This document shows positions 4,661 to 17,481 of a stretch of 64,000 nt of DNA, one piece after another. The notes beneath the pieces are model-generated. The model made no database searches. It saw only the letters and a list, made by a program, of their open reading frames with translations, and had not been told where the DNA came from. The stretch comes from Cyanobacteriota bacterium. GTDB taxonomy: Bacteria > Cyanobacteriota > Vampirovibrionia > LMEP-6097. The first letter of the stretch is position 1. Each line of letters begins with the position of its first letter. A program made the translations under genes and the position numbers. The stretch spans positions 1,225 through 65,224 of the forward strand of contig JAQCFG010000001.1 of the NCBI GenBank assembly GCA_027618255.1. The letters are read 5' to 3'.

Positions 4661-5953
4661 ATGACCACTCTCGTGCAAGACACTACGCTAAAACTCAATC
4701 AAGAACAAGAAAAGCTCAGAGAGCTAATTGAAAATACCAATCAACATGTTTTTATCACTGGTAAAGCCGGCACTGGTAAATCAACCCTACTACAAGAGCT
4801 CAAAAACTCCAGCAGCAAAGAATTAGTAGTTGTGGCACCTACAGGCGTTGCAGCGCTCAATATCGGCGGTCAAACAATTCATTCATTCTTTAAAATCAAA
4901 CCAACTGGTTTCATTGATAAAAAACAACTTAAAGTAAGTCAAGAAAGCAAAAAACTCTTTAATAAGATCAACACCGTTATCATCGATGAGATTTCAATGG
5001 TAAGAGCTGACTTGATGGATGCGATTGATTTCATTCTGAAACAAGCACGCCAATGCAGTGAGCCGTTTGGCGGCGCGCAAATAATTATGTTCGGTGATCT
5101 ATATCAATTGCCGCCTGTCGTCGCTGACAAAAGCCTAGAGCAATACCTTAGAGAGGTTTATGGTGGATTTTATTTCTTCAACGCCAATGTTTGGTCAGAA
5201 GCTGATCTTGAGATCCATGAACTCAAAGAAAATATGCGCCAAAAGGATGAGGAGTTTAGAGAAATCCTAGATGCCATTCGTATTCGCGAGTTTGATACTG
5301 CACTATTAAATAGCCTCAATGAAAGAGCTCAAGTCCAGCCGCCAAATAATGACTTCATCACTCTTGCGCTCACCAATAGTGCAGTGCAAGCAATCAACCT
5401 TGAAAAGCTCAACGCACTTCATAGTAAGAAACACGAATACAAAGCCAAGATAGAAGGGCACCTAGAACCCTCTGCCTATCCTACAGAACAAAAACTACAG
5501 CTCAAAGAAGGCGCCCAAGTAATGTTTTTAAAAAACGACCGAGAAGGTCGTTGGGTCAATGGCAGTATTGGAACTATTTTTAGTTTAAGTCGTAATGAAG
5601 TTGAAGTTGAACTTGATGGTGAGATCCATGTAATCAAACCAGAGAAGTGGGACAAGATACGCTACTCCATTGATAGCGACAGCAACAAAATCACCGAAGA
5701 AACTGTCAGCTCATTTAAACAATTCCCGCTTAGACTTGCCTGGGCAATCACAGTGCACAAATCACAAGGACAAACTCTTGATAGAGTTGTGCTTGATATG
5801 GGCAGAGGTGCCTTTGCTCATGGTCAAACCTACGTCGCCCTTAGTCGTTGCCGCAAGCTCGACCAGCTCTACCTCAAGCGTGAAATCAAAGCTAGAGACA
5901 TCATTATTGACCCTCAAGTTAGTGATTTTATGCGTAAAACCATCAAGAACTAG
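4661..5953 (+). CDS. Pif1/RecD-family SF1B DNA helicase
   Basis: Walker A GKAGTGKST, Walker B IIDEISMV, FGDLYQLPPV, ENMRQ and AITVHKSQGQTLDRVVL motifs. Confidence 0.7.
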   Translation: MTTLVQDTTLKLNQEQEKLRELIENTNQHVFITGKAGTGKSTLLQELKNSSSKELVVVAPTGVAALNIGGQTIHSFFKIKPTGFIDKKQLKVSQESKKLFNKINTVIIDEISMVRADLMDAIDFILKQARQCSEPFGGAQIIMFGDLYQLPPVVADKSLEQYLREVYGGFYFFNANVWSEADLEIHELKENMRQKDEEFREILDAIRIREFDTALLNSLNERAQVQPPNNDFITLALTNSAVQAINLEKLNALHSKKHEYKAKIEGHLEPSAYPTEQKLQLKEGAQVMFLKNDREGRWVNGSIGTIFSLSRNEVEVELDGEIHVIKPEKWDKIRYSIDSDSNKITEETVSSFKQFPLRLAWAITVHKSQGQTLDRVVLDMGRGAFAHGQTYVALSRCRKLDQLYLKREIKARDIIIDPQVSDFMRKTIKN

Positions 5954-6002
5954 GGTTTTCAGCTATCAAATCTTGCTCACTTCGCGTCTTGTATAAGCAT
6001 CT

Positions 6003-7049
6003 ATGGGGGATACACAAACTAGAATTAGGCCTCGAATCAATCTGCCGGAACCAGCTCCGGTCAACTCAATTTATACAATTAAACAAGGTGATGGATTAAT
6101 TTCTGCACTAAAAGCTCTAAAATCAAAAATCAAAACAGACAATGGTGGTAGAGTGCCAAGTAAATTACAGTATCTTTTTGATAAGGAATCTGCTTCATTA
6201 TATCTACATAGTCAATTCAATAAAGACAATCCTGGGCATCCAATTAAACCAGGTGACAAGTTATCAATAGACAATACTGGTAATGTCAATCTTAAACAAG
6301 CAGGGACTGAAGACAAAACCATAATCCCCAAACCACAAGAAGTTCCTGTTCTTAAATTGCCAGAGCCAGCTAAAGCAGATAGTTTCATTAACTACAATAT
6401 TTTAGATCCAGGTCACGGTAGCCACAAAGACCATAAAATATGGGGCAAAATTTTTGATTCTGGTAGCATAGCAATTCACAACGGCCTACGCAATGACGAA
6501 GAAGAAGTTGTAGAAAGGCTTGCACTAGATCACTTCAAGCCAGAACTTGATAAACAATTTCATGTGGTTACAACAAGAGACGGAGACCTCGGGGTTGAAG
6601 ATATCGATGGAAGGATCGCTAGAATTAATTCTGGAATAGCTGCAGCCAAAAAAGAAAAACCTGAATTACCAACTACTCTAATTTCAGTACATGCAAACTG
6701 GTCCTCGAAGTCAAGTGATAGTGGCATGATTATTTTTATTGCCGATGCTGATTTTAAGAACAAATCATCTGATAGTTACCAGCTAGCGAGCAAAATAGCA
6801 GGGTCAATGCAAACTCAAGCAGGACTCGCGGTAAAAATTAAATCAGATAGAGACACGAGGCACGAATCCATAGGTATTTTAAGAAGAACTCATGCTGATG
6901 CCAAAATTTTAATTGAAACTGGTTTCATGACCAACGCTAATGACATTCGTATGATGACAGAAGCAGATATCGAAGGCATGGCAGACCAAACAGAATTGTC
7001 ACAAGCACTAAGGCTAGGTTTAGCTGAATATTACAAAGAGAAACAGTAA
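6003..7049 (+). CDS. LysM-like domain plus N-acetylmuramoyl-L-alanine amidase (Amidase_3) protein
   Basis: N-terminal YTIKQGDGLISALK...PGDKLSI resembles LysM; the C-terminal region has LISVHANW and ETGFMTNANDIRMMT, matching Amidase_3. There is no obvious signal peptide. Confidence 0.55.
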   Translation: MGDTQTRIRPRINLPEPAPVNSIYTIKQGDGLISALKALKSKIKTDNGGRVPSKLQYLFDKESASLYLHSQFNKDNPGHPIKPGDKLSIDNTGNVNLKQAGTEDKTIIPKPQEVPVLKLPEPAKADSFINYNILDPGHGSHKDHKIWGKIFDSGSIAIHNGLRNDEEEVVERLALDHFKPELDKQFHVVTTRDGDLGVEDIDGRIARINSGIAAAKKEKPELPTTLISVHANWSSKSSDSGMIIFIADADFKNKSSDSYQLASKIAGSMQTQAGLAVKIKSDRDTRHESIGILRRTHADAKILIETGFMTNANDIRMMTEADIEGMADQTELSQALRLGLAEYYKEKQ

Positions 7050-8412: not shown

Positions 8413-9753
8413 ATGTCCGTTGTCAGGATACGACCCTGTTGCCTCTCAGAATTGAGAATAAGACCAGCTCCAGAAAATTCTTCTGGAGCTGGTTCAGCGC
8501 AATGCCCAACTCAGCATTTGGAAGCAAGGGGGCGCTTATCAATAGCTCGAAATCAAACACAAGAACAAAATCACAATTTAGATAGACCGAATCAATTTTT
8601 AACACCAGAAGAATTCAAACGGAAATTTAACACCTCGCTTGAGAATGTGCTTCTAGCTCCCAGAGCTAGGATGGAAAAAGGTGATACTGGGGCTTGTCGT
8701 ATTAACATTTCAGAAGAGTCATGGATTTTAAAAATTAGCGATAGGAAAGAAAAAGCAATAAATGAGCTTTTGATACGTAATGTTATCAATGAATTCTTCC
8801 CAAATCTACTCAGCACAACAGAAGCCTATGCTGTTGGTGCGGATGACCATACTTTATGCCTTAATCGATTTAGCCCAGCATCTAATAATCAGGAACTTTT
8901 TAACGACCTGAAGATGCAAGATAGAATTGAAATCTCAATACTTGCTCTTGTATTTGGTGTTAAAGATTTCAATTCTGGTAACATCTTATTTAAAGATGAT
9001 CAAACACCTGTATTGATAGACTTTGAAACCACTCATCATAGTCCAGAAAATTACAAAATTTATAAAAGAGGGAGGGAACTATTGCGTGAGAAATATCCAT
9101 ATATTTTAAGTGAAATGGATCCGACTAAATTAGATCAATATAAAGCTAAACAACGAGAATGGTTAAAAATAGTTAATGACGATAGTTTTAGAGCAAGGCT
9201 TTTTGAAATAGTGAAAATTTCAGGTGGGGATGAAACTATGGCAAAAATTTATTATGAGACTATCAAAAGAAATTTAAGTAATTATGAAAGAACATTACAA
9301 CTCTTAACAGAAATGAAAAGCTTAGGTATTCCTAAGACTGAATTAAATTCTTTGGGCTGGAAAGGTGGAATAAATAGTTTGAATTTTGACGAAAATACTA
9401 GTATCTTTGATACTGGAAAGAAACTTGAACTTAAAGAGGGTGAGCAATTGCTTCTAGAATTTGCTTCAGATGGAGTATTACTCATTGAATATGATGGACA
9501 ATCCTTTAAATTTCTATACAGGGATAATCATAGACAAGTGGAGAAAACTAGACAGGTAGGATGTGAATTTAAAATTGGTACGAGTGCTGATTCTAATGAT
9601 GTCATTATTTGTTTAAAAGATGAGGCGGGAGAAAAATGTCCTTGTGACTTAAATATAAGCCTAGCCGCAAATGGGAGAATCACTTTTAAACATCGACAGC
9701 CAGAACAAACAAATAATGTGAGGTTAATAGGTGTCTTTGCTAATAATCTGTAG
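8413..9753 (+). CDS. Protein-kinase-like fold protein (APH/ChoK/PI3K-like catalytic motifs); the start is uncertain and is probably near 8671
   Basis: Motifs WILKISDRKEKAINELL, KDFNSGNILF (catalytic-loop-like D-x-N-x-G-N-I-L) and VLIDFE (DFG-like). The first 87 codons contain a perfect 12-bp hairpin and no Met until codon 87. Confidence 0.4.
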   Translation: MSVVRIRPCCLSELRIRPAPENSSGAGSAQCPTQHLEARGRLSIARNQTQEQNHNLDRPNQFLTPEEFKRKFNTSLENVLLAPRARMEKGDTGACRINISEESWILKISDRKEKAINELLIRNVINEFFPNLLSTTEAYAVGADDHTLCLNRFSPASNNQELFNDLKMQDRIEISILALVFGVKDFNSGNILFKDDQTPVLIDFETTHHSPENYKIYKRGRELLREKYPYILSEMDPTKLDQYKAKQREWLKIVNDDSFRARLFEIVKISGGDETMAKIYYETIKRNLSNYERTLQLLTEMKSLGIPKTELNSLGWKGGINSLNFDENTSIFDTGKKLELKEGEQLLLEFASDGVLLIEYDGQSFKFLYRDNHRQVEKTRQVGCEFKIGTSADSNDVIICLKDEAGEKCPCDLNISLAANGRITFKHRQPEQTNNVRLIGVFANNL

Positions 9754-9808
9754 AGAAACTGAAGAATAATTCTGGCCATTTTACAAATAATTTCTTATAA
9801 TTATCAAT

Positions 9809-10144
9809 ATGAAATACTTCCTATACTGCCGTAAGTCCACTGACTCAGAGGATAGGCAAATGCTTTCTATTGAAGCCCAGCTTCAAGAACTTCGAGACTA
9901 TGCTCGTAAAGAGAAGCTTGATGTAATCAAAGAATTCACTGAATCCAAAACAGCAAAGAAACCTGGTAGAGAAATTTTCAATGAAATGATCTCAGAGATT
10001 GAAGCTGGTAAGGCTGATGGCATAGTAGCTTGGAATCCAGACAGATTAGCTCGCAACTCAGTCGATGGTGGAAGAATAATTTATCTTATTGATGAAGCTG
10101 TAATAAAAGATCTCAAATTTCTGGTTCTTGCTCTGAGATTTTAG
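9809..10144 (+). pseudogene. 5' fragment (N-terminal ~105 codons) of a large serine recombinase gene
   Basis: Its product aligns residue for residue with the first 105 aa of the intact recombinase at 15540..17171 (about 85% nt identity, including the promoter region from ~9770). Similarity ends near 10123, then 6 unrelated codons and a stop follow. Confidence 0.7.
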
Positions 10145-10307: not shown

Positions 10308-11408
10308 TTATTTTGAATTACTCTCTTGAATTTGAGCAAAAAGTTCGCCAAGATCGACAATTTTTTTACCTTCAAATTTTTTCTGAAAGTACTCATCTGC
10401 ATCTTCAGTATTTGCAATAAAGCAACCTTGTTCTTGGATTAATCTTTCTAATTCTTCTACACTTTGCTTTTTAATTGACGATCCAATTTGTGCAGCAAGC
10501 CTGTGACTGTTTGCTAAAACTTTTGCTTGTGTTTGGCTTGAATTAAATCCTGATTCTCCAGAGTGGGCTACCGCTTCTGCTTCTAGGTCTGAATCAATAT
10601 AGCCATCGAGTAGTCTTGCAAGTTCAGTGTTATATAGTCTATGTAAAGTTCCTTGAACTCTATCTTTTCTAGCACCTTTACGAAAATCATTTCTTAAAGC
10701 TTTCCAGAGCATTACTTTTTCTTTTCTAGTAGCTTTATCTTTAAAATCTTGATAACTTTTATAACCAAACTTTTTAGCTTTAGATTCAGCTAGAGTTTTC
10801 AACTCGAAACTTTCCCTTAAAATCCCTTTCTTTTCCATGTAAGTAAGTGCCTTATGGTAGTCACGAAAAGTCTGAATTCGTTCTGGACTTAAACTAGGTC
10901 TTCTGTGTTTCAGTAAGGCAAGTTGTTCTAATGTTTTTGGATAGCTGACACCAATATCTTGCGCATTACCTGATGCTGCTGCCTCAAAATATTGTTGAGT
11001 ATGTTTGAGCTCATGTTTTAGTATCGTTTTGATTTTGTCTAAGCTTAACTTACCTCTTGTTTTGATACTGTTTATTTCAACAATAATTGAATTTGTTTCT
11101 GGTGAATAAGCTGCACTAAATTCTTGCTCAGATTTTTTTGAATTGATAATATATACGTCAGGTTTAAACTCTTTTGGAATTCCGAGTTCTTGTGCTTCTT
11201 TATCTATGACTTTGGCTAAAAAATTTTGTAACCTTTGTGTTTCTTTATCTCTAGAATTACTTAAGCTCATCAATGAAATTTCTGCTCTAGTTTTTAAAGG
11301 TCTTAATTTTCTTTTCAGTCGTTTTGGAAATTCTTCAAGCTGTTTATCCAGCCCTAGCCGAGAGGCAAACCCCATACTTGTGCAAGCTAATTGTTGAATT
11401 CTACTCAT
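10308..11408 (-). CDS. Hypothetical Lys-rich protein with an HExxH motif
   Basis: 366-aa ORF containing LKHELKHTQQ, a possible zinc-metallopeptidase motif; no other recognisable domain. Confidence 0.4.
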   Translation of the reverse strand: MSRIQQLACTSMGFASRLGLDKQLEEFPKRLKRKLRPLKTRAEISLMSLSNSRDKETQRLQNFLAKVIDKEAQELGIPKEFKPDVYIINSKKSEQEFSAAYSPETNSIIVEINSIKTRGKLSLDKIKTILKHELKHTQQYFEAAASGNAQDIGVSYPKTLEQLALLKHRRPSLSPERIQTFRDYHKALTYMEKKGILRESFELKTLAESKAKKFGYKSYQDFKDKATRKEKVMLWKALRNDFRKGARKDRVQGTLHRLYNTELARLLDGYIDSDLEAEAVAHSGESGFNSSQTQAKVLANSHRLAAQIGSSIKKQSVEELERLIQEQGCFIANTEDADEYFQKKFEGKKIVDLGELFAQIQESNSK

Positions 11409-11733
11409 GACCTTTCTATATAAAGATAAGTTATTGAAATTATTGATATTTTTAGGTGTTTTTGCTTATGACTTTTTGTAGCTACTAGCGCGCCACTTCG
11501 TGGCTTGCATCCTTTTGATTTTTTAGCTCCGTTTCATCTGTCTGCTTTACTAACGGCTACAGCAGCCATGATGAAACGAAGCCAAAAAATACAGTGTTAG
11601 CTAATGGGACAGCAGAGAGGGTGTTAAGAAAGACCGCTCTTCTGTCTGCTCGCGTCTCAGCCTCGAGCAAGCGAGCAGCCCAAAGGGCTGCGAGCGTTCC
11701 CAGTTAGGCTTGGCTGGGCTTGAGGTGGGTAAA

Positions 11734-11928
11734 TGGCGCGTCCGGAAGGATTTGAACCTTCGACCATGGTCAAGCCAAATACAATTACCAGTTTACTCAA
11801 TAGACCTAAATCGGCTAAAGCCGAAGTGAATTTTTAATATGTGATTTGCTTTGCAAATCACTGGTTTTGAGAGCACTTCTAGGCTTTTAACCGATTGATC
11901 GAGGGCTAGATCTTGCGAACACTCCTCT
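11734..11928. repeat. Island-end repeat unit A (tRNA 3'-end-like ~30 nt, a spacer with hairpin gtgatttgctttgcaaatcac, and a degenerate tRNA-Lys-like anticodon arm in the opposite orientation)
   Basis: Near-identical to unit B and about 80% identical to unit C. It starts with tggcgcgtccggaaggatttgaaccttcgacc, the reverse complement of a tRNA T-arm, acceptor 3' strand and CCA. Confidence 0.7.
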
Positions 11929-11968
11929 AAAAAACAAAAAGAACCCTAAAGGGCTCTTTTTGTTTTTT
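11929..11968. terminator. Bidirectional intrinsic terminator palindrome (A-run, 17-bp stem, T-run)
   Basis: aaaaacaaaaagaaccc-taaa-gggctctttttgttttt; it has the same architecture as the palindrome at 17363..17402. Confidence 0.6.
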
Positions 11969-11972
11969 AATT

Positions 11973-12160
11973 GTGCGTCCGGAAGGATTTGAACCTTCGA
12001 CCATGGTCAAGCCAAATGCAATTACCAGTTTACTCAATAGACAATAGTGGCTTGACCAAAATCGGCTAAAGCCGAAGTGAATTTTTAATATGTGATTTGC
12101 TTTGCAAATCACTGGTTTGAGAGCACTTCTTAGCTTTTAACTAATTGATCGAAATTCAGA
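11973..12160. repeat. Island-end repeat unit B
   Basis: Second tandem copy of unit A; it contains cttagcttttaactaattg, a degenerate tRNA-Lys anticodon stem-loop. Confidence 0.7.
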
Positions 12161-12176
12161 TTCTACTGGCTACTCC

Positions 12177-12355
12177 ACATCCCCGCAGCCAACTGGCATT
12201 CCGAGCCCCTTATCGGTTGCCCGCTTCCAGGGATTCTTGTGTTCTCAGCTTCCCCACTAGTGTATTTTGCTCTAGGAATTTTTTGAGAGCATAGCTCTGG
12301 CTGCTGTGTAACAGGAATACAGGCAGAGATATGCTCGATAAAAAATTCCATGGCA
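12177..12355 (-). pseudogene. Inverted copy of the last ~176 bp of the serine recombinase gene (left arm of an inverted repeat)
   Basis: It is the reverse complement of 16975..17150 with only a few mismatches. The spurious ORF 12163..12351 encodes SGQPIRGSECQLAAGM, identical to the recombinase C-terminus. Confidence 0.75.
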
Positions 12356-12592
12356 AAGCAAGGAGGAGCAGAGCGACGACGCGCTAGTTTCTGTCAGCGA
12401 GGGCTTTAGCTTAGCCTGTCCAGAGGAGCGTAGCGACGTAGGGAAAGCAATCTCCCAACTTAAGCTACTAACAGCCCTAAAGTGCCACTTCAGACTTTAT
12501 AGCACAACCTTATTTCAGCACGTGGAGCAAGACGCAAGGTGGCTTGCGGAACCCAGTTGAGACAAGTGAAACGCAGGCTCAACTGGAAAAAA

Positions 12593-14935
12593 TCAAGAAG
12601 TAACTTTTTCTTTTAACTGATTCAGTTTTTGTTCTTTCTGTTCTTTAATTTGTTGATTATTAGGGTCATCAAAAGAGACAAAATTTGAACACAAGGCATT
12701 ATAATGCTCTTTATCTTTCAGCTCCAAACACTCAACAATATTTTTTATAATTTGGCTACATTCGTTTATGTCAGAATGTTTGATAAAACTTTCACTAGAT
12801 CCACTATGAGAATAATTATGTACAAACTTTTCTATTCGAGTTGCCTGTATTTTTTCATCAATTAAAAAATGTAACTTTGAAGACCAAGATTTTGAATCTG
12901 GGCATTTCATTCCCAAATATGCCTCCAAAAACTTTCTAATAATATTCCCCAATATATAATGTTGTTCAAACTCCGCGGAAGGATTTTTATAAAATTTATG
13001 AATTAAATAAAAAAGATAAATATATTCCGACTTAAATTTCTTAAGCTGCCAAGGTAGCTTTTTGATTGAAGATGAATTTTTATACTTATTGTGTGTCCTT
13101 TCAATAAAGTAAAACGGTGCTTCATCAAGTTTATTGTTGTTTTGCAACTTAAGTTTTTCTTTGATAAAATCCTTAACCAAATTAAAGAATTCTAGATTAT
13201 GAGTAGAAATAAAAAGTTGTTTGCATTGATTATCTCCCAACCTTTCCCTAATAAAAGAGTACACATTATACAAATGGTTACTATCAAGACTAGAAATTGG
13301 GTCATCAATAAAAACAACAGTTTCAGAAAGATTTGTATTTTTATCTTCTAGGCTAGCAATAAAATAAGCAAAGGATATTGCTGTCTTCTCACCTTCACTT
13401 AAATTTTTGGCCGGCTTGTTGTCTCTTAATAATTTAAAAAGGCCTTTTTCATTAGTTTCAAATACCAAGTTGTCACTATTAAATAGGATTTGCAAATATT
13501 CATTTACTTTCTTAGCCCCATTTGCATTTTCAGAAAGCCTATTCTCTAAACTCACAATTTCAGACTTTAATTCACATATCAGAGTTTTCTTTTCAGATAT
13601 TAACTTCTCTTGTTCTTTTATAAGCTCTTGATTATCTATATAGTTCGTATCATTAATAAATTCATGTGCAAAGTGTTGTATTAATTTCTCTTTCAATAAT
13701 TCTCTCTCTGAATTAAAGTTATTTGTTTTTGCATTGTGCTTATCAATCACTTGATTGATTTTTTCTACAATATTCCTAATCACCTCTACTTCAGTTTTCT
13801 CAAAATCTCTTAAATCCCTAGGTGTCAATTCCTCAAAAGGATTTTCACTTTTTTGCACTAGGCAGGCCTTTAAGTTTTCAAGATATTCAGTAGAAACAGC
13901 AAGTTCATTTTTTAATATACCTTTCAAATTTTCATATTCTAATTGGAAATCATCATAGAATCTTGCTTTATCAATTAACCTTACATCTATCTCGTTAATC
14001 ACTTTAATTTTTTGATCTATCTGGTCTTTTAGTAGGTTTATTTCAGTACGTAATTTGCTCAGATCATCTGAAAAATGTTTTTCTAGCTTCCCGATTAAAT
14101 CAGCGGGTAATTTATTACCACAAAATTTACAATTATCACTATCTTTATGTAAATCCTTACCATGTTCAACCCATCTATTAAGTTCGGTATTTTCCAATAA
14201 CTTCTCTATGGTTTCTGCAATTGGTTTTTTCACCAAAAGTTCTTCTGTTCTTTGGTAAAGATTTTCACTATCAATTTTCAGCAGTATTAAAAATGATATA
14301 CCTTCTTTGACATTTGTATCTTGATAAGAGCGTATCGCTCTTTGTAGAGCATCATCTGTAAGTATTTTGTTCTCATCATTTTTTAGTACAGCACTTTCAA
14401 CATAAGGAATAAATCTATTTTTATCAAAGTTAACAATTGACAAAAGGTTCTTTATATTACTGGCTCTTTCAGAAAGAGATTTTATTAAATTCTGTTGGAG
14501 TAATCCTGTCTCTCCAGCTAAATTAACTAAACTTTCATTCTCTACCTTCAGTTCGTTAGCTTTAGAGCTTAACCGTTCTTGAAGCTCAATATTTTGTTCA
14601 CCAAGAATAAAGATAGGTTGAATCTCATCATCTTGCTGATGCCATTTTAAATTTCTATCTATAAAATCGATATTAAAAACCCTTATATCAATTACCTGAG
14701 TTAGGTCTGAACTTGATTTCAGTCCTTTTTCAGTTTCAAAAACAAACTCTGCATTAGGGTAGTCCTCATGCCTCTCTTGTCTCTCAAAACATTGAAAGAT
14801 ACGGGATAAAGAAGTTTTTCCAGTGTAATTCCAGCCATATATAAGATTATATTTTTCAAAATTTGGCAGCGATTCACTCCAAGTGAAATCCTCAAAGACT
14901 GCAAATTTCTTTATTGTATCTATCTTCACTATCAC
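12593..14935 (-). CDS. AAA_13-family ABC-type ATPase with a coiled-coil CxxC zinc hook and a C-terminal PrrC/RloC-like anticodon nuclease region (RloC-like)
   Basis: The N-terminus KKFAVFEDFTW...NLIYGWNYTGKTSLSRIF carries the AAA_13 Walker A. Also present are a DSDNCKFCGNKL zinc hook in the coiled coil, LSEGEK, VVFIDDPISSLD, FISTHNLEFF, and a C-terminal GNIIRKFLEAY motif (R-x3-E) followed by His residues about 35 aa later. Confidence 0.6.
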   Translation of the reverse strand: MIVKIDTIKKFAVFEDFTWSESLPNFEKYNLIYGWNYTGKTSLSRIFQCFERQERHEDYPNAEFVFETEKGLKSSSDLTQVIDIRVFNIDFIDRNLKWHQQDDEIQPIFILGEQNIELQERLSSKANELKVENESLVNLAGETGLLQQNLIKSLSERASNIKNLLSIVNFDKNRFIPYVESAVLKNDENKILTDDALQRAIRSYQDTNVKEGISFLILLKIDSENLYQRTEELLVKKPIAETIEKLLENTELNRWVEHGKDLHKDSDNCKFCGNKLPADLIGKLEKHFSDDLSKLRTEINLLKDQIDQKIKVINEIDVRLIDKARFYDDFQLEYENLKGILKNELAVSTEYLENLKACLVQKSENPFEELTPRDLRDFEKTEVEVIRNIVEKINQVIDKHNAKTNNFNSERELLKEKLIQHFAHEFINDTNYIDNQELIKEQEKLISEKKTLICELKSEIVSLENRLSENANGAKKVNEYLQILFNSDNLVFETNEKGLFKLLRDNKPAKNLSEGEKTAISFAYFIASLEDKNTNLSETVVFIDDPISSLDSNHLYNVYSFIRERLGDNQCKQLFISTHNLEFFNLVKDFIKEKLKLQNNNKLDEAPFYFIERTHNKYKNSSSIKKLPWQLKKFKSEYIYLFYLIHKFYKNPSAEFEQHYILGNIIRKFLEAYLGMKCPDSKSWSSKLHFLIDEKIQATRIEKFVHNYSHSGSSESFIKHSDINECSQIIKNIVECLELKDKEHYNALCSNFVSFDDPNNQQIKEQKEQKLNQLKEKVTS

Positions 14936-15068: not shown

Positions 15069-15485
15069 ATGTCTGGTATCACAAATTTAGGTCACATAGT
15101 AACAGATAGAGCTAACGTAGCGCAGGATATTCAAACTAGAGACAAAGTCCGTGAGTTTGGCGATATTGTTGCTGGTGTTTTATCAGGAGCTAATGACGGT
15201 GAACCAAAAGCAAGCTCCCCTGAAGACCAAGCTGCTGCTACAAGATATGCAGCAAATGTTGCAGGAGCACATTTGCTAATGGGAACAGGCAATGTCACAC
15301 CAAAACAAGCTAATCAGTTAAAAAATGACGCTGACTTTGCAAGAAGAGCTGCTGGAGGCGATGAAGTTATTTTAGAGGATGTTATCAAAGTTGCTGAACA
15401 AGTTGCCAATAATGGAGATCCAGAAGTTGGTGGGACTATGATTCTATCGGTTGCAGAGCATCTAGGTAAAATTGCACAATCTTAG
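15069..15485 (+). CDS. Hypothetical Ala/Gly-rich protein, divergent from the RloC-like gene
   Basis: 138-aa ORF with a low-complexity N-terminus MSGITNLGHIV, similar in style to other uncharacterised proteins in this window. Confidence 0.35.
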   Translation: MSGITNLGHIVTDRANVAQDIQTRDKVREFGDIVAGVLSGANDGEPKASSPEDQAAATRYAANVAGAHLLMGTGNVTPKQANQLKNDADFARRAAGGDEVILEDVIKVAEQVANNGDPEVGGTMILSVAEHLGKIAQS

Positions 15486-15539: not shown

Positions 15540-17171
15540 ATGGATAAATATTTTATTTACTGTAGGAAATCCTCCGACTCAGAGGATAGACAAATGCTTT
15601 CTATTGAAGCTCAATTACAAGAACTCAGAGACTATGCTCGTAAAGAAAAGCTTGAAATAGTTAGAGAGTTCACCGAGTCTAAAACAGCGAAGAAACCTGG
15701 CAGAGAGATCTTTAATGAAATGATCTCAGAGATTGAAGCTGGTAAGGCTGATGGGATAGTAGCCTGGAATCCAGATCGCTTAGCAAGGAACTCTGTTGAT
15801 GGTGGAAGAATAATTTATCTTATTGATGAAGCTGTAATAAAGGATCTTAAGTTTCCGACTGCTTGGTTTGATAATTCACCTCAAGGCAAATTCAATCTCT
15901 CTATAGCTTTTGGGCAAGCAAAATTTTATGTCGATAATCTTAGACAGAACGTTCATCGTGGCATACGCCAGAAACTACGCAAAGGACAGTATTGCAATAA
16001 AGCTCCTCTTGGATATATTAATCACCCTAAAACTAGAACTATAGAACCTGATCCTGTTGAGTTTGACTTGATGAGAAAAACTTTTGATCTATTCCTTACT
16101 GGAAACTGTTCACAGACTGAGATTCGACAAGCAATGTTTGAAATGGGAATTAAGAATCAAACTGGTGATAGAATCCACAGAGATAAAGTAAAAAAGACTC
16201 TTCAGAATCCATTTTATTATGGCTACTCCTATCACAAAGGAGAACTCTACGAAGCCTCTCACCAGCCTATGATAACAAAAGCTGAGCATGAAGAAGTACA
16301 AAGAATCCTAAAACTCAAATCTAAGAACAAATACAAAACTACTAAGAAGGATAAGAAGAAAAGAGATTTCTTTTTCTTAGGTTTTGAGAAGTGCGGTGAG
16401 TGTGGCTGTAGTTTTACAGCAGAAAGACATGAAAAGAAAAAATATAACGCAGTCTGGAAATATTACAGATGCTCTAAGAAAAAGAAAGACATGGATTGCG
16501 ATCAACCTTACCTCAAAGAAGAAATACTTTCTGGGCAAGTAAAAGATACTGTCTCAAGGATAGCCTTAAGTGATGACTGGAGCGAGCTTGCGCTTAAGAC
16601 TCTAGACTCCTGGGCAGACACAGAGCGACAGTCATCACTTAAAACAGCCAAGAACCTTGAGTCAGATCTAAAAATCATCAGAGAAAAGCTTGAAAGGCTA
16701 CTAGATCTTCATTTGGATGGTGTTTTATCATCTGGTGAATACAAAAGCAAAAAAAATGCTCTAATAAGCTCCAAGCTAAAACTTGAAACTCAGCTCTCTC
16801 AAATCAAACAAGACGGTGTAGTTTGGCTCGAACCAAGCAAGACACTTATAAAAGAAGCTAATAGAGCCAAGAAATTAGTTGAAGAAGAAAATTATCACGA
16901 AATGCGCTCTTTACTTCAAAAAGCAGGCTCGAACCAATTAATACGAGATAGAAAGTTCAGCATGAACTACCTTGAGCCATGGAATTTTCTTATCGAGCTA
17001 AACTCTTCATTCCTGTTACACAGCAGCCAGAGCTATGCTCTCACTGAATTACCTTCAGAAAATGCGCTAGTGGGGTGGGCGGGAATAAAAAAATCCCCGC
17101 GCAGCGGGCAACCGATAAGGGGCTCGGAATGCCAGTTGGCTGCGGGGATGTCAGAATGGTGCGTCCGCTAG
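15540..17171 (+). CDS. Large serine recombinase (resolvase/invertase catalytic domain, recombinase domain and zinc ribbon)
   Basis: The N-terminus YCRKSSDSEDRQMLSIEAQ carries the catalytic Ser context; CGECGCS...YYRCS is the zinc ribbon; there is a C-terminal coiled coil. The stop codon lies inside repeat unit C. Confidence 0.8.
   Translation: MDKYFIYCRKSSDSEDRQMLSIEAQLQELRDYARKEKLEIVREFTESKTAKKPGREIFNEMISEIEAGKADGIVAWNPDRLARNSVDGGRIIYLIDEAVIKDLKFPTAWFDNSPQGKFNLSIAFGQAKFYVDNLRQNVHRGIRQKLRKGQYCNKAPLGYINHPKTRTIEPDPVEFDLMRKTFDLFLTGNCSQTEIRQAMFEMGIKNQTGDRIHRDKVKKTLQNPFYYGYSYHKGELYEASHQPMITKAEHEEVQRILKLKSKNKYKTTKKDKKKRDFFFLGFEKCGECGCSFTAERHEKKKYNAVWKYYRCSKKKKDMDCDQPYLKEEILSGQVKDTVSRIALSDDWSELALKTLDSWADTERQSSLKTAKNLESDLKIIREKLERLLDLHLDGVLSSGEYKSKKNALISSKLKLETQLSQIKQDGVVWLEPSKTLIKEANRAKKLVEEENYHEMRSLLQKAGSNQLIRDRKFSMNYLEPWNFLIELNSSFLLHSSQSYALTELPSENALVGWAGIKKSPRSGQPIRGSECQLAAGMSEWCVR
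16975..17150. repeat. Right arm of the ~176-bp inverted repeat (the recombinase 3' end)
   Basis: Reverse complement of 12177..12355. Confidence 0.75.
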
Positions 17172-17359
17172 GATTTGAACCTAGGACAATGGTCAAGCCA
17201 AATGCGATTACCAGTCAACCCAATGTCCTTAGGGCTTGACCAAAATCGGCTAAAGCCGAAGTGATTTTTTTATGTAATTTGCTTTGCAAATTACTGGTCT
17301 GAGAGCACTTCTTGGCTTTTAACCGATTGGTCCCGGGTTCAGGTTCTAGTGGAAGTACC
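17156..17359. repeat. Island-end repeat unit C (31 nt identical to the tRNA-Lys 3' end, a spacer with hairpin, and a pseudo tRNA-Lys 3' half in plus orientation)
   Basis: tggtgcgtccgctaggatttgaacctaggac matches 17405..17435. Downstream, gagagcacttcttggcttttaaccgattggtcc mimics the D-arm and anticodon arm of tRNA-Lys(UUU). Confidence 0.7.
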
Positions 17360-17362
17360 TTA

Positions 17363-17402
17363 AAAATCAAAAATCACCCACAAGGGGTGATTTTTGATTT
17401 TT
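17363..17402. terminator. Perfect 18-bp palindromic intrinsic terminator (A-run, stem, T-run) abutting the tRNA-Lys 3' end
   Basis: aaaaatcaaaaatcaccc-acaa-gggtgatttttgattttt. Confidence 0.65.
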
Positions 17403-17404
17403 AA

Positions 17405-17481
17405 TGGTGCGTCCGCTAGGATTTGAACCTAGGACCAATCGGTTAAAAGCCGAGTGCTCTACCGGGCTGAGCTACGGACGC
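17405..17481 (-). tRNA. tRNA-Lys (anticodon UUU) with encoded CCA
   Basis: Reverse complement GCGTCCGTAGCTCAGCCCGGTAGAGCACTCGGCTTTTAACCGATTGGTCCTAGGTTCAAATCCTAGCGGACGCACCA folds by hand into a cloverleaf with a 7-bp acceptor stem, anticodon loop CTTTTAA and T-loop TTCAAAT. Confidence 0.85.

What the first reader, a model, noticed from the sequence alone, without database searches (positions are those of the whole stretch)
11734..12160. Tandem ~190-nt repeat units with a tRNA 3'-end copy on one strand and a pseudo tRNA-Lys half on the other, plus twin palindromic terminators
Units A (11734..11928) and B (11973..12160) are tandem. Unit C (17156..17359) has the same composition in three parts. 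First is the reverse complement of a tRNA T-arm, acceptor and CCA. Second is a spacer with a conserved hairpin (gtgatttgctttgcaaatcac). Third, on the opposite strand, is a degenerate copy of the tRNA-Lys D-arm 3' side, anticodon arm (CTTTTAA loop retained) and T-arm.

Units A and C are each followed by the same kind of perfect palindrome (A-run, 17-18-bp stem, T-run) at 11929..11968 and 17363..17402; the second abuts the real tRNA. The unit could be an element end sequence (attP arm) or a small structured RNA that travels with the island. The retained tRNA-Lys anticodon stem-loops are striking given the adjacent anticodon nuclease gene.
Basis: seen in the sequence. Interest (0 to 1): 0.5.

Follow-up and report, generated by a model that had tools for sequence, protein, structure and literature searches.

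The report
tRNA-Lys-mimic attachment modules of recombinase islands
The three ~200-nt repeats are DNA docking modules, each a back-to-back pair of partial tRNA-Lys gene copies, that mark where mobile islands driven by a large serine recombinase have piled up beside the real tRNA-Lys gene; they are probably not RNA genes.

Summary
Units A, B and C align over ~200 nt, and each is an imperfect palindrome. It consists of a 3' two-thirds copy of tRNA-Lys on the minus strand (F arm), a 21-nt central palindrome, and a degenerate copy on the plus strand (Psi arm).

Between B and C lies a 5-kb island: a defence ATPase, a 138-aa ORF and a large serine recombinase (LSR). The 3' end of the LSR gene overlaps unit C and is copied in inverted form next to unit B.

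Ten homologous LSR loci, next to His, Ala, Glu, Val and Ile tRNAs, share this layout. The LSR gene abuts a convergent tRNA and is bracketed by long inverted repeats that start at the tRNA's CCA end. A tRNA-3'-like arm sits on the far side.

A sister strain carries tRNA-Lys, the terminator and unit C (99% identical) but no island. Its sequence diverges exactly at the CCA end of unit C's F arm. A more distant relative has no unit.

The units are therefore accessory attachment-site modules (attB-type tRNA mimics) in a tandem array of LSR elements. An RNA gene or a link to the anticodon nuclease is not supported. The family architecture appears to be undescribed.

The parts
9809..10144 (+). Truncated N-terminal fragment (111 aa) of a second large serine recombinase. 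It is the remnant of an older element (E0) to the left of the array.
   Evidence: Pfam Resolvase domain. It is 94% aa identical to residues 3-105 of the intact recombinase and 85% identical in DNA over 310 bp.
11484..11740 (+). Flank X: a recombinase-side ('I'-type) arm of the decayed element E0. It abuts the CCA end of unit A's F arm.
   Evidence: 75% identical to L007 8981-9214, where it follows another hairpin unit. It weakly resembles the inverted repeat IR-L/IR-R. The junction ...GCGCCA|TTTAC is listed.
11734..11840 (-). Unit A, F arm: tRNA-Lys anticodon-arm-like hairpin, a variable-region insertion hairpin (with a 14-nt deletion), the T arm (GAAGG/CCTTC), the 3' strand of the acceptor, and CCA.
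11841..11861 (.). Unit A, central 21-nt palindrome GTGATTTGCTTTGCAAATCAC.
   Evidence: (I14).
11862..11926 (+). Unit A, Psi arm: degenerate tRNA-Lys copy from the 3' strand of the D stem to the 3' end (CTTTTAA loop kept).
11929..11968 (.). Palindromic A-run/stem/T-run bidirectional terminator between Psi_A and F_B.
   Evidence: (I4, D3).
11971..12091 (-). Unit B, F arm (T stem GAAGG/CCTTC; 3' end reads ACAA).
12092..12112 (.). Unit B, central palindrome.
   Evidence: I14.
12113..12177 (+). Unit B, Psi arm. Its CCA-like end is fused directly to IR-L.
12177..12354 (-). IR-L: inverted copy of the last ~55 codons of the recombinase gene plus its embedded tRNA terminator. It is the left 'I' arm of island E2.
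   Evidence: 84-86% complementary to 16976-17151. It is 85% conserved in L007-L009.
12593..14935 (-). Island cargo: 780-aa AAA_13 ATPase (candidate defence protein; RloC/PrrC-like).
   Evidence: Pfam AAA_13 E = 7e-138. PADLOC PDC-S06 E = 1e-163; PrrC only 1.9e-12.
15069..15485 (+). Island cargo: 138-aa ORF of unknown function, upstream of the recombinase.
   Evidence: ORF list. No family match.
15540..17171 (+). Large serine recombinase (543 aa). Its stop codon lies inside unit C's F arm.
   Evidence: Pfam Resolvase + Recombinase + Zn_ribbon_recom. 100% match to an NCBI 'recombinase family protein' from a Cyanobacteria MAG.
16976..17151 (+). IR-R: right 'I' arm (the 3' end of the recombinase gene). 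It contains a minus-strand intrinsic terminator at 17096-17108.
17157..17273 (-). Unit C, F arm. Its T arm, acceptor and CCA are 33/33 identical to the real tRNA-Lys. The island's breakpoint relative to strain L043 lies at its CCA end.
17274..17294 (.). Unit C, central palindrome GTAATTTGCTTTGCAAATTAC (compensatory change relative to A and B).
17295..17359 (+). Unit C, Psi arm (the least degenerate of the plus-strand tRNA-Lys copies).
17360..17404 (.). Perfect 20-bp-arm palindromic bidirectional terminator between Psi_C and the real tRNA-Lys.
   Evidence: I8. Conserved in L043 (43/45).
17405..17481 (-). Functional tRNA-Lys(UUU), the anchor of the array.
   Evidence: ARAGORN. Rfam RF00005, 70.9 bits.

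Best explanation
The units act at the DNA level. Each is an inverted pair of partial tRNA-Lys gene copies: an F arm on the minus strand and a Psi arm on the plus strand, joined head-to-head through a short palindrome. Both arms end in a tRNA-like ...CCA.

These ends mimic the bacterial half-site (attB type) used by a family of large serine recombinase (LSR) elements. Those elements recombine at the very 3' end of a tRNA gene.

In the window, every tRNA-like end is joined, right after CCA, to one of two things. One is a palindromic terminator (an unoccupied, attB-like junction). The other is the recombinase-side 'I' arm of an LSR element (an occupied junction).

The region reads as a tandem array: decayed element E0 (ending in X) | unit A + terminator | unit B + island E2 (IR-L, defence ATPase, ORF138, LSR, IR-R) | unit C + terminator | tRNA-Lys.

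**Shown**
- The anatomy of the units.
- The family-wide architecture.
- The insertion breakpoint at the CCA end of unit C's F arm.
- The units are accessory yet strongly conserved.

**Inferred**
- The LSR binds the arms, with the T-loop-like GTTC motif acting as the zinc-ribbon-domain (ZD) motif.
- F arms followed by a terminator act as secondary landing pads. Islands can then accumulate without disrupting the real tRNA.
- Units A and C are recombinase-less mini-elements or remnants.
For: **1. Anatomy**
- All seven tRNA-like ends are followed by TT... of either a terminator or an I arm.

**2. Recombinase**
- The gene has three LSR domains, and its 3' end overlaps unit C.

**3. Family pattern**
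- In 10 loci with 46-78% identical LSRs, the 3' end of the LSR gene overlaps a convergent tRNA in eight. Of the other two, one abuts a truncated tRNA fragment and the other has its end interrupted by an IS. The tRNAs are His, Ala (x4), Glu, Val and Ile.
- The gene is bracketed by inverted repeats of 44-206 bp at 81-100% identity. These begin 0-7 nt inside the tRNA's 3' end.

**4. Homologous arms in CPR relatives**
- A second pair of 117-272-bp inverted repeats (96-100% identical) flanks the cargo and meets the first pair at a 3-9-nt core. This defines the distal end of the element, next to a native A/T-run palindromic terminator.
- Short hairpin units with inner palindromes occupy the same position in L010, L040, L048 and L007.

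**5. Half-site spacing**
- A GTTC(G/T)A(G/A)C motif lies 29 nt from the CCA-like end (28 in one relative) in the arms of 9 relatives. It lies 24 nt from the end in genuine tRNAs and in the F arms of the window. The window's degenerate Psi arms show the same spacing by manual count.
- This matches the published 5-bp inward shift of the ZD motif in attB relative to attP (PMC3783163).

**6. Sister strain L043**
- L043 (UmuC 95% aa identical) is colinear from tRNA-Gln to the end of unit C, then diverges exactly after ...GCGGACGCACCA|TT. It has no island.
- The distant relative L044 has tRNA-Lys with no unit.

**7. Conservation**
- Unit C is 202/204 identical between the strains, against 86.4% at umuC third codon positions.

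**8. Covariation**
- The two arms of each unit covary (2 compensatory arm-arm pairs).

**9. Tandem arrays elsewhere**
- L010 has 4.5 mini-units of 208-227 bp whose F arm copies tRNA-His.
Against: - No circular form, empty-site/occupied-site pair for the same element, or recombination assay is available. The crossover position is inferred from repeat boundaries.
- Island E2 lacks the attP-type (29-nt) arm seen in relatives. Its IR-L is only 84-86% identical to IR-R and carries a 6-nt deletion at the junction. E2 may therefore be immobile or rearranged.
- The window's layout (two attB-type/I hybrid junctions in inverted orientation) fits a palindromic attP x palindromic attB reading. The relatives fit attP = Psi.I x attB = tRNA.D plus an unexplained internal inverted attP copy. 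I could not reconcile the two readings.
- How recombinase-less units A and C arose or moved is unknown.
- The functional tRNA-Lys carries T stem CTAGG in the window and GAAGG in L043 (the same as F_A and F_B). A CCA-end crossover does not explain this exchange of the 3' part. It needs gene conversion.
- The exact unit sequence was found nowhere else in two large collections, so comparative depth for the unit itself is two strains.
Confidence: 0.62

Rival explanations
1. Inert debris. The units are tRNA-Lys pseudogene fragments left by past duplications, inversions and deletions around an integration hot spot. They have no present role in recombination or anything else.
For: - The Psi arms are degenerate, and unit A has a 14-nt deletion.
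- The neighbouring element E0 is clearly decayed.
- IR-L of E2 is degenerate.
- The unit sequence is not found outside this lineage.
Against: - Unit C is 99% identical between strains whose umuC third codon positions are 86% identical.
- The arms covary.
- F arms keep perfect T stems and acceptor ends.
- The same nested-palindrome layout recurs with unrelated sequences next to homologous LSRs.
- An island end sits exactly at an F-arm CCA.
Confidence: 0.2
2. The unit encodes a ~200-nt structured small RNA, on either strand, that travels with the island. It could be a regulator or a tRNA-like molecule.
For: - Very stable predicted folds (z = -11 to -12).
- Three compensatory pairs.
- Terminator-like palindromes follow units A and C.
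- High conservation.
Against: - Both strands fold equally well, as expected of a DNA palindrome.
- No sigma-70-like promoter.
- No Rfam family at or near threshold, and no tRNA call.
- The homologous arms in CPR relatives are separated by 2-6 kb of genes.
- The compensatory changes are equally expected for a protein-bound or cruciform DNA palindrome.
Confidence: 0.07
3. An invertible switch. The recombinase flips the segment between the inverted repeats (or between the arm pairs) to vary expression of cargo or of itself.
For: - In relatives, long and often 100% identical inverted repeats bracket the recombinase gene and, separately, the cargo.
- The LSR element in L007 lies inverted relative to the X-like arm, compared with the window.
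Against: - In all 9 loci with an adjacent tRNA or tRNA fragment, the 3' end of the recombinase gene faces that tRNA.
- No assembly shows the alternative orientation.
- The inner ends of the repeats vary in position (44-206 bp), which looks like homogenisation rather than a defined site.
Confidence: 0.06
4. The retained tRNA-Lys anticodon stem-loops are decoys or antidotes for the island's anticodon-nuclease-like ATPase.
For: - The Psi arms keep CTTTTAA.
- The cargo protein is related to PrrC/RloC.
Against: - The same architecture occurs with other tRNAs and with restriction-modification (RM), Thoeris-TIR, OLD, PhzF or LysE cargo.
- Unit C exists in L043 without the nuclease.
- There is no sign of transcription signals.
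- The F arms have a shortened TTTA loop.
Confidence: 0.03

Closest known systems
Tandem arrays of integrative genetic elements at tRNA genes (Islander/TIGER islands; tycheposons of Prochlorococcus)
   Same: - An integrase gene next to a tRNA, and partial tRNA copies marking the boundaries.
- Successive insertions that push older, decaying elements outward, with remnants that lack an integrase.
- Sources: PMC7192596 and 10.1101/2020.12.28.424599.
   Different: - Those systems overwhelmingly use tyrosine integrases that cross over inside the tRNA and leave simple direct repeats.
- Here the enzyme is a large serine recombinase, a group 'not known for targeting tRNA genes' (PMC7192596).
- The crossover maps to the CCA end.
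- The partial tRNA copies come as inverted pairs around a palindrome.
Large serine integrase att-site logic (A118/LI, Bxb1, phiC31)
   Same: - Three-domain LSR.
- Short core.
- A recognition motif 5 nt nearer the crossover in the bacterial half-site (tRNA, 24 nt) than in the element half-site (Psi arms of relatives, 29 nt). This matches the ZD motif shift in PMC3783163.
   Different: - Known phage integrases have ~40-50-bp sites without long repeats and do not target tRNAs.
- Here the sites are embedded in inverted repeats of 44-272 bp.
- The integrase ORF runs into the target tRNA.
- An extra inverted attP-like copy sits inside the element.
SCCmec / SCC composite islands (CcrAB/CcrC large serine recombinases at the 3' end of rlmH). 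This comparison is from my own knowledge.
   Same: - LSR-driven elements that insert at the 3' end of a conserved gene.
- They regenerate a target-like site and stack in tandem.
- They include recombinase-less pseudo-elements bounded by the same repeats.
   Different: - The target is a protein gene, not a tRNA.
- The terminal repeats are short.
- The window's LSR matches the Ccr models only far below their cut-offs.
MITE-like non-autonomous elements
   Same: Small (~200-250 bp), bounded by inverted arms, without a gene, and next to an autonomous relative.
   Different: - Not dispersed. All copies sit in one array at one locus.
- The arms are copies of the target gene rather than of transposon ends.

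Membership tests
Integrative element / genomic-island array at a tRNA gene | Integrase gene at the element end next to the target tRNA | tested here: met
   The LSR at 15540-17171 ends inside a tRNA-Lys 3' copy, 234 nt from the real tRNA. The same holds in homologous loci.
Integrative element / genomic-island array at a tRNA gene | Partial copies of the target tRNA, in direct orientation, marking element boundaries | tested here: met
   F arms at 11734, 11971 and 17157 match the tRNA at 17405.
Integrative element / genomic-island array at a tRNA gene | Related genome lacking the element, with a precise breakpoint | tested here: met
   L043 is colinear up to window position 17155/17156 and then diverges. 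L044 has no unit at all. The other flank of the array was not recovered.
Integrative element / genomic-island array at a tRNA gene | Excision to a circle / demonstrated mobility | not testable with these tools
   No read data or experiments are available.
Large serine recombinase (serine integrase) | N-terminal resolvase catalytic domain with the catalytic Ser, recombinase domain, and zinc ribbon with Cys ligands | tested here: met
   PF00239, PF07508 and PF13408. Invariant R9, S11, C285, C288, C311 and C320 in 12 homologues. The closest solved chains are catalytic domains of a conjugative-transposon recombinase and TnpX.
Large serine recombinase (serine integrase) | attP and attB half-sites carrying the same motif offset by ~5 bp | tested here: inconclusive
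   Met in 9 relatives (29 versus 24 nt; PMC3783163). In the window every arm has the 24-nt (attB-type) spacing, and no 29-nt arm was found for island E2.
tRNA gene / tRNA-like RNA | Complete cloverleaf recognised by tRNA models | tested here: not met
   ARAGORN and Rfam RF00005 call only 17405-17481 in this region. The arms lack the 5' acceptor strand and the 5' half of the D arm.
Described structured RNA families (Rfam 15) | Match at or near a family's gathering score | tested here: not met
   The best sub-threshold hits are far below their cut-offs and are hairpin or terminator artefacts.
MITE / non-autonomous transposon | Many dispersed copies bounded by terminal inverted repeats | tested here: not met
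   Inverted arms are present. There are only three copies, all at this locus. The only hits to the 20-mer in genome and metagenome collections were chance hits.
Invertible DNA switch (inverton) | Segment found in both orientations between inverted repeats, with a cognate recombinase | tested here: not met
   Inverted repeats and a recombinase are present. The orientation relative to the tRNA is the same in all 9 loci where a tRNA or tRNA fragment is adjacent.
SCC-type cassette chromosome elements | Ccr-family recombinase | tested here: not met
   NCBIfam CcrA/B/C scores are 47-62 bits against cut-offs of 700-900.

The most novel reading that the evidence does not exclude
A previously undescribed class of large-serine-recombinase elements, widespread in Patescibacteria, Melainabacteria and other uncultured lineages and carrying defence cargo. 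These elements recombine at the CCA end of tRNA genes and read the T-loop as the recognition motif. They are built from two nested pairs of long inverted repeats: tRNA-mimic 'Psi' arms around the cargo and 'I' arms around the recombinase gene, with an internal inverted copy of attP. In some lineages, including this window, they spawn tRNA-copy palindromic modules. These modules would act as decoy landing pads, so that islands stack up without touching the essential tRNA.
Probability: 0.35. Interest if true: 0.75.

Novelty: new variant of a known kind. Interest (0 to 1): 0.58.

Why it matters
Islands at tRNA genes are textbook tyrosine-integrase biology. Serine integrases have been described as not targeting tRNA genes (PMC7192596).

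This locus and its ten relatives point to a sizeable LSR clade that does target them. It uses the near-universal T-loop/CCA end as the bacterial half-site and carries defence genes in poorly studied phyla.

If the inferred site logic holds, it would explain how tandem islands and recombinase-less remnants form at these tRNAs. It would add a natural case of the 5-bp attP/attB motif shift. It could also supply integrases whose targets exist in almost any genome.

For annotation, it shows that such 'tRNA debris' marks element junctions and should not be called as RNA genes.

Tried and rejected
- **Rfam.** Gathering mode on the whole window and E-value mode on 11300-12500 gave only the true tRNAs or noise. 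A permuted or two-piece tmRNA reading of unit A plus flank X was considered and dropped: ARAGORN and Rfam found nothing, and there is no 5' acceptor strand.
- **Collection scans with the unit's 20-mer.** Exact scans of genome contigs and metagenome contigs returned only coding-sequence coincidences.
- **Plasmid collection.** A blastn search of the plasmid collection found no hit.
- **Viral contigs.** An LSR profile found only distant relatives (<=42% identity). Several sit next to convergent tRNAs, but only one (L018) has the inverted repeats.
- **Classical crossover inside the tRNA, 5' of the T arm.** This was considered because the tRNA T stem differs between strains. I rejected it as the main model: CPR relatives have no displaced tRNA fragment at the distal end, and their repeat overlaps define a 3-9-nt core at the tRNA's 3' end. 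The allele swap is left unexplained.
- **A palindromic 'AT' central dinucleotide.** Proposed, then rejected for the CPR loci, where the core is CCA/CCAC.
- **The outer flank of the array.** The genes downstream of the L043 and L044 tRNA-Lys loci are absent from the window.
- **Promoter scan.** No promoter-like site lies in or beside the units.
- **Literature.** Four searches found no description of this architecture.
Full report
**1. What is in the sequence**

ARAGORN and Rfam find one real tRNA-Lys(UUU) at 17405-17481 on the minus strand.

Three units align over their full length with 83% mean column identity. They are A (11734-11928), B (11971-12177) and C (17157-17359). A 22-mer shared by all three is expected 0.00 times by chance.

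Each unit starts with the reverse complement of the tRNA-Lys T arm, acceptor and CCA. In unit C this stretch is 33/33 identical to the real gene. Each unit has a central 21-nt palindrome. Each ends with a degenerate plus-strand tRNA-Lys copy, running from the 3' strand of the D stem to the 3' end and keeping CTTTTAA.

The minus-strand 'F' arm continues past a 43-57-nt hairpin inserted in the variable region. Beyond it lies a remodelled anticodon arm, TCGGC-TTTA-GCCGA. Each unit is therefore one long imperfect palindrome built from two tRNA-Lys 3' two-thirds joined head-to-head.

Both strands fold with equally extreme stability, z = -11.4 and -12.4.

The palindromes at 11929-11968 and 17360-17404 are as described.

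**2. Surroundings**

Between B and C lies a 5-kb island, which I call E2. It holds:
- a 780-aa AAA_13 ATPase (PADLOC candidate system PDC-S06; only weakly PrrC-like);
- a 138-aa ORF;
- a 543-aa large serine recombinase (LSR).

The stop codon of the LSR gene lies inside unit C's F arm. The last ~55 codons of the LSR gene also carry a minus-strand terminator at 17096-17108. This stretch (IR-R) is repeated in inverted orientation directly after unit B (IR-L, 84-86% identical).

Further left there is a 111-aa N-terminal fragment of a second copy of the same LSR (94% aa identity). Next to it is a conserved flank X, which abuts unit A.

Written in the sense of each tRNA-like arm, all seven arms end in ...CCA and are followed by TT....
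- Psi_A, F_B, Psi_C and the real tRNA are followed by a palindromic terminator.
- F_A, Psi_B and F_C are followed by an LSR-side arm (X, IR-L and IR-R respectively).

**3. Relatives of the recombinase**

The LSR is identical to a protein from a 'Cyanobacteria bacterium' MAG. The host flank identifies the lineage as Melainabacteria.

I examined ten homologous loci with 46-78% aa identity. In eight of them the 3' end of the LSR gene overlaps a convergent tRNA.

| Locus | Adjacent tRNA |
|---|---|
| L010 | His |
| L015 | Ala |
| L016 | Glu |
| L017 | Ala |
| L039 | Ala |
| L041 | Ala |
| L042 | Val |
| L048 | Ile |

In the other two loci no complete tRNA adjoins the gene. L040 abuts a truncated tRNA fragment, and in L007 the gene's end is interrupted by an IS.

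In each of the ten loci the gene's 3' end is repeated in inverted orientation upstream. These repeats are 44-206 bp long and 81-100% identical. Where a tRNA is adjacent, they start 0-7 nt inside its 3' end.

Even LSRs that are only 30-35% identical, from viral contigs, often sit next to a convergent tRNA.

In four CPR (Candidate Phyla Radiation) loci the sequence just outside IR-L is conserved between elements that use different tRNAs. It resembles a tRNA T arm plus acceptor plus CCA. It also recurs, inverted and 96-100% identical over 117-272 bp, at the far side of the cargo. There it abuts a native A-run/T-run palindromic terminator.

These elements therefore read as follows:

terminator | rc(Psi) - cargo - Psi.core.I - LSR - rc(I).core | tRNA

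The core is 3-9 nt long and lies at the discriminator/CCA end.

In L010, L040, L048 and L007 the two Psi arms are only 77-153 nt apart. They enclose an inner palindrome, in the same position and shape as the window's units, but with unrelated sequence.

L010 also has 4.5 tandem mini-units of 208-227 bp. Their F arm copies the 3' end of tRNA-His, and each ends in a palindromic terminator.

**4. Site logic**

A GTTC(G/T)A(G/A)C motif lies 29 nt from the CCA-like end (28 in one case) in the Psi arms of nine relatives. It lies 24 nt from the end in all genuine tRNAs.

[quoted passage not shown] I infer that the relatives' Psi arms are attP-type half-sites and the tRNA is the attB-type half-site.

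In the window, the F arms were scored at the tRNA-type 24-nt spacing, and the degenerate Psi arms give the same value by manual count. The units are therefore pairs of attB-type half-sites.

**5. Host-flank test**

The UmuC-like gene next to tRNA-Lys has a 95% identical homologue on contig L043.

L043 is colinear with the window from tRNA-Gln to the last base of unit C (89.6% over 2.6 kb). It carries tRNA-Lys, the terminator and unit C.

Immediately after ...GCGGACGCACCA|TT it continues into a different terminator-like sequence and an unrelated ORF. Island E2, together with units B and A and element E0, is therefore an insertion whose breakpoint is the CCA end of unit C's F arm. Unit C exists without an island.

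A more distant Melainabacteria relative (L044) has tRNA-Lys with no unit and no palindrome. The units are thus accessory.

Unit C is 202/204 identical between the two strains, whereas umuC third codon positions are 86.4% identical. That indicates either constraint or recent exchange.

RNAalifold finds three compensatory pairs. Two lie between the arms and one lies in the central palindrome.

**6. Interpretation**

The best reading is that the units are DNA-level attachment-site modules in a tandem array of tRNA-3'-end-targeting LSR elements.

- F or Psi arms joined to terminators are unoccupied, attB-like junctions.
- Arms joined to I arms are occupied junctions.

Tandem arrays of integrative elements, with remnants that lack an integrase, are known (PMC7192596; tycheposons). 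The enzyme class, the CCA-end crossover, the nested long inverted repeats and the palindromic tRNA-copy modules are not described in anything I could find.

**7. What remains open**

- I could not reconcile two readings of the layout. The window fits a palindromic attP (rc(I).I) inserted into a palindromic attB (Psi_B.rc(F_C)). The relatives fit attP = Psi.I x attB = tRNA.terminator, with an unexplained internal inverted attP copy.
- The origin and mobility of the recombinase-less units are unknown.
- The real tRNA's T stem is CTAGG in the window (the same as F_C and the L044 tRNA) but GAAGG in L043 (the same as F_A and F_B). This points to exchange between the tRNA and the arms, which a CCA-end crossover does not explain.
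- No inversion polymorphism was seen. In all 9 loci with an adjacent tRNA or tRNA fragment, the 3' end of the LSR gene faces the tRNA.

**8. Rivals**

- **RNA gene.** Disfavoured. There is no promoter and no Rfam match. Folding is symmetric on both strands. In relatives the arms lie kilobases apart.
- **Decoy for the anticodon-nuclease-like cargo.** Disfavoured, because the same architecture accompanies other tRNAs and other cargo, and unit C occurs without the nuclease.
- **Pure debris.** This remains the main rival. It is weakened by the conservation, the arm covariation and the recurrence of the layout.

Noticed in passing
window 9809-10144: A 111-aa N-terminal fragment of a second copy of the island's serine recombinase (94% aa and 85% DNA identity). 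It breaks off at 10121 and is followed by an unrelated 366-aa ORF on the other strand.
   Followed up: partly
window 11484-11740; L007 8981-9214: GC-richer flank X with several hairpins. It is 75% conserved in a related metagenome contig, with compensatory hairpin changes (GCCAC-GAA-GTGGC versus GCCTGC-GTA-GCAGGC). It weakly resembles the recombinase 3'-end repeat. In L007 it lies in the opposite orientation relative to the neighbouring LSR element.
   Followed up: partly
window 17096-17171: The C-terminal codons of the recombinase are encoded by the trailer and intrinsic terminator of the convergent tRNA-like arm. The stop codon lies in its T stem. In L015 and L017 the called ORF runs through the whole tRNA.
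   Followed up: partly
window 17405-17481 versus L043 2494-2570: The functional tRNA-Lys differs between two close strains only by a compensatory T-stem swap (CTAGG/CCTAG versus GAAGG/CCTTC). Each allele equals an F arm of the array, which suggests exchange between the gene and its copies.
   Followed up: partly
L016 5273-5544 / 9602-9873; L039 4058-4283 / 9523-9748; L041; L042: CPR elements carry two adjoining pairs of long inverted repeats that are often 100% identical. One pair surrounds the cargo (restriction-modification (RM), Thoeris-TIR, OLD and HTH genes). The other surrounds the recombinase gene. The two pairs meet at a 3-9-nt core.
   Followed up: yes
L017 8763-8838 and 11509-11584: Here the recombinase segment sits between two complete, convergent tRNA-Ala genes (GGC and UGC). 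Their downstream ~130 bp are inverted repeats.
   Followed up: partly
L010 5283-6235: A tandem array of 4.5 mini-units (208-227 bp, 92-97% identical). Each contains 20 nt of the tRNA-His 3' end, a spacer and a palindromic terminator. The array lies distal to the LSR element.
   Followed up: partly
window 12593-14935: The 'anticodon nuclease' is a full-length match to the PADLOC candidate defence family PDC-S06 (1e-163). It matches PrrC only weakly (1.9e-12), so nuclease activity on tRNA-Lys is not established.
   Followed up: partly
window 4661-7049: A RecD2/TraA-like helicase and a cell-wall amidase lie upstream of the array. The decayed element E0 may belong to a larger mobile region that extends beyond the start of the window.
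   Followed up: no
L048 10752-10900: Downstream of the target tRNA-Ile there is a second partial copy of the tRNA's 5' portion (CCAACTGAGCTAAAGA...), followed by a palindromic terminator.
   Followed up: no
L007 7341-8650: An ISL3-family insertion sequence interrupts the 3' end of the 78%-identical recombinase gene, inside its inverted-repeat arm.
   Followed up: no
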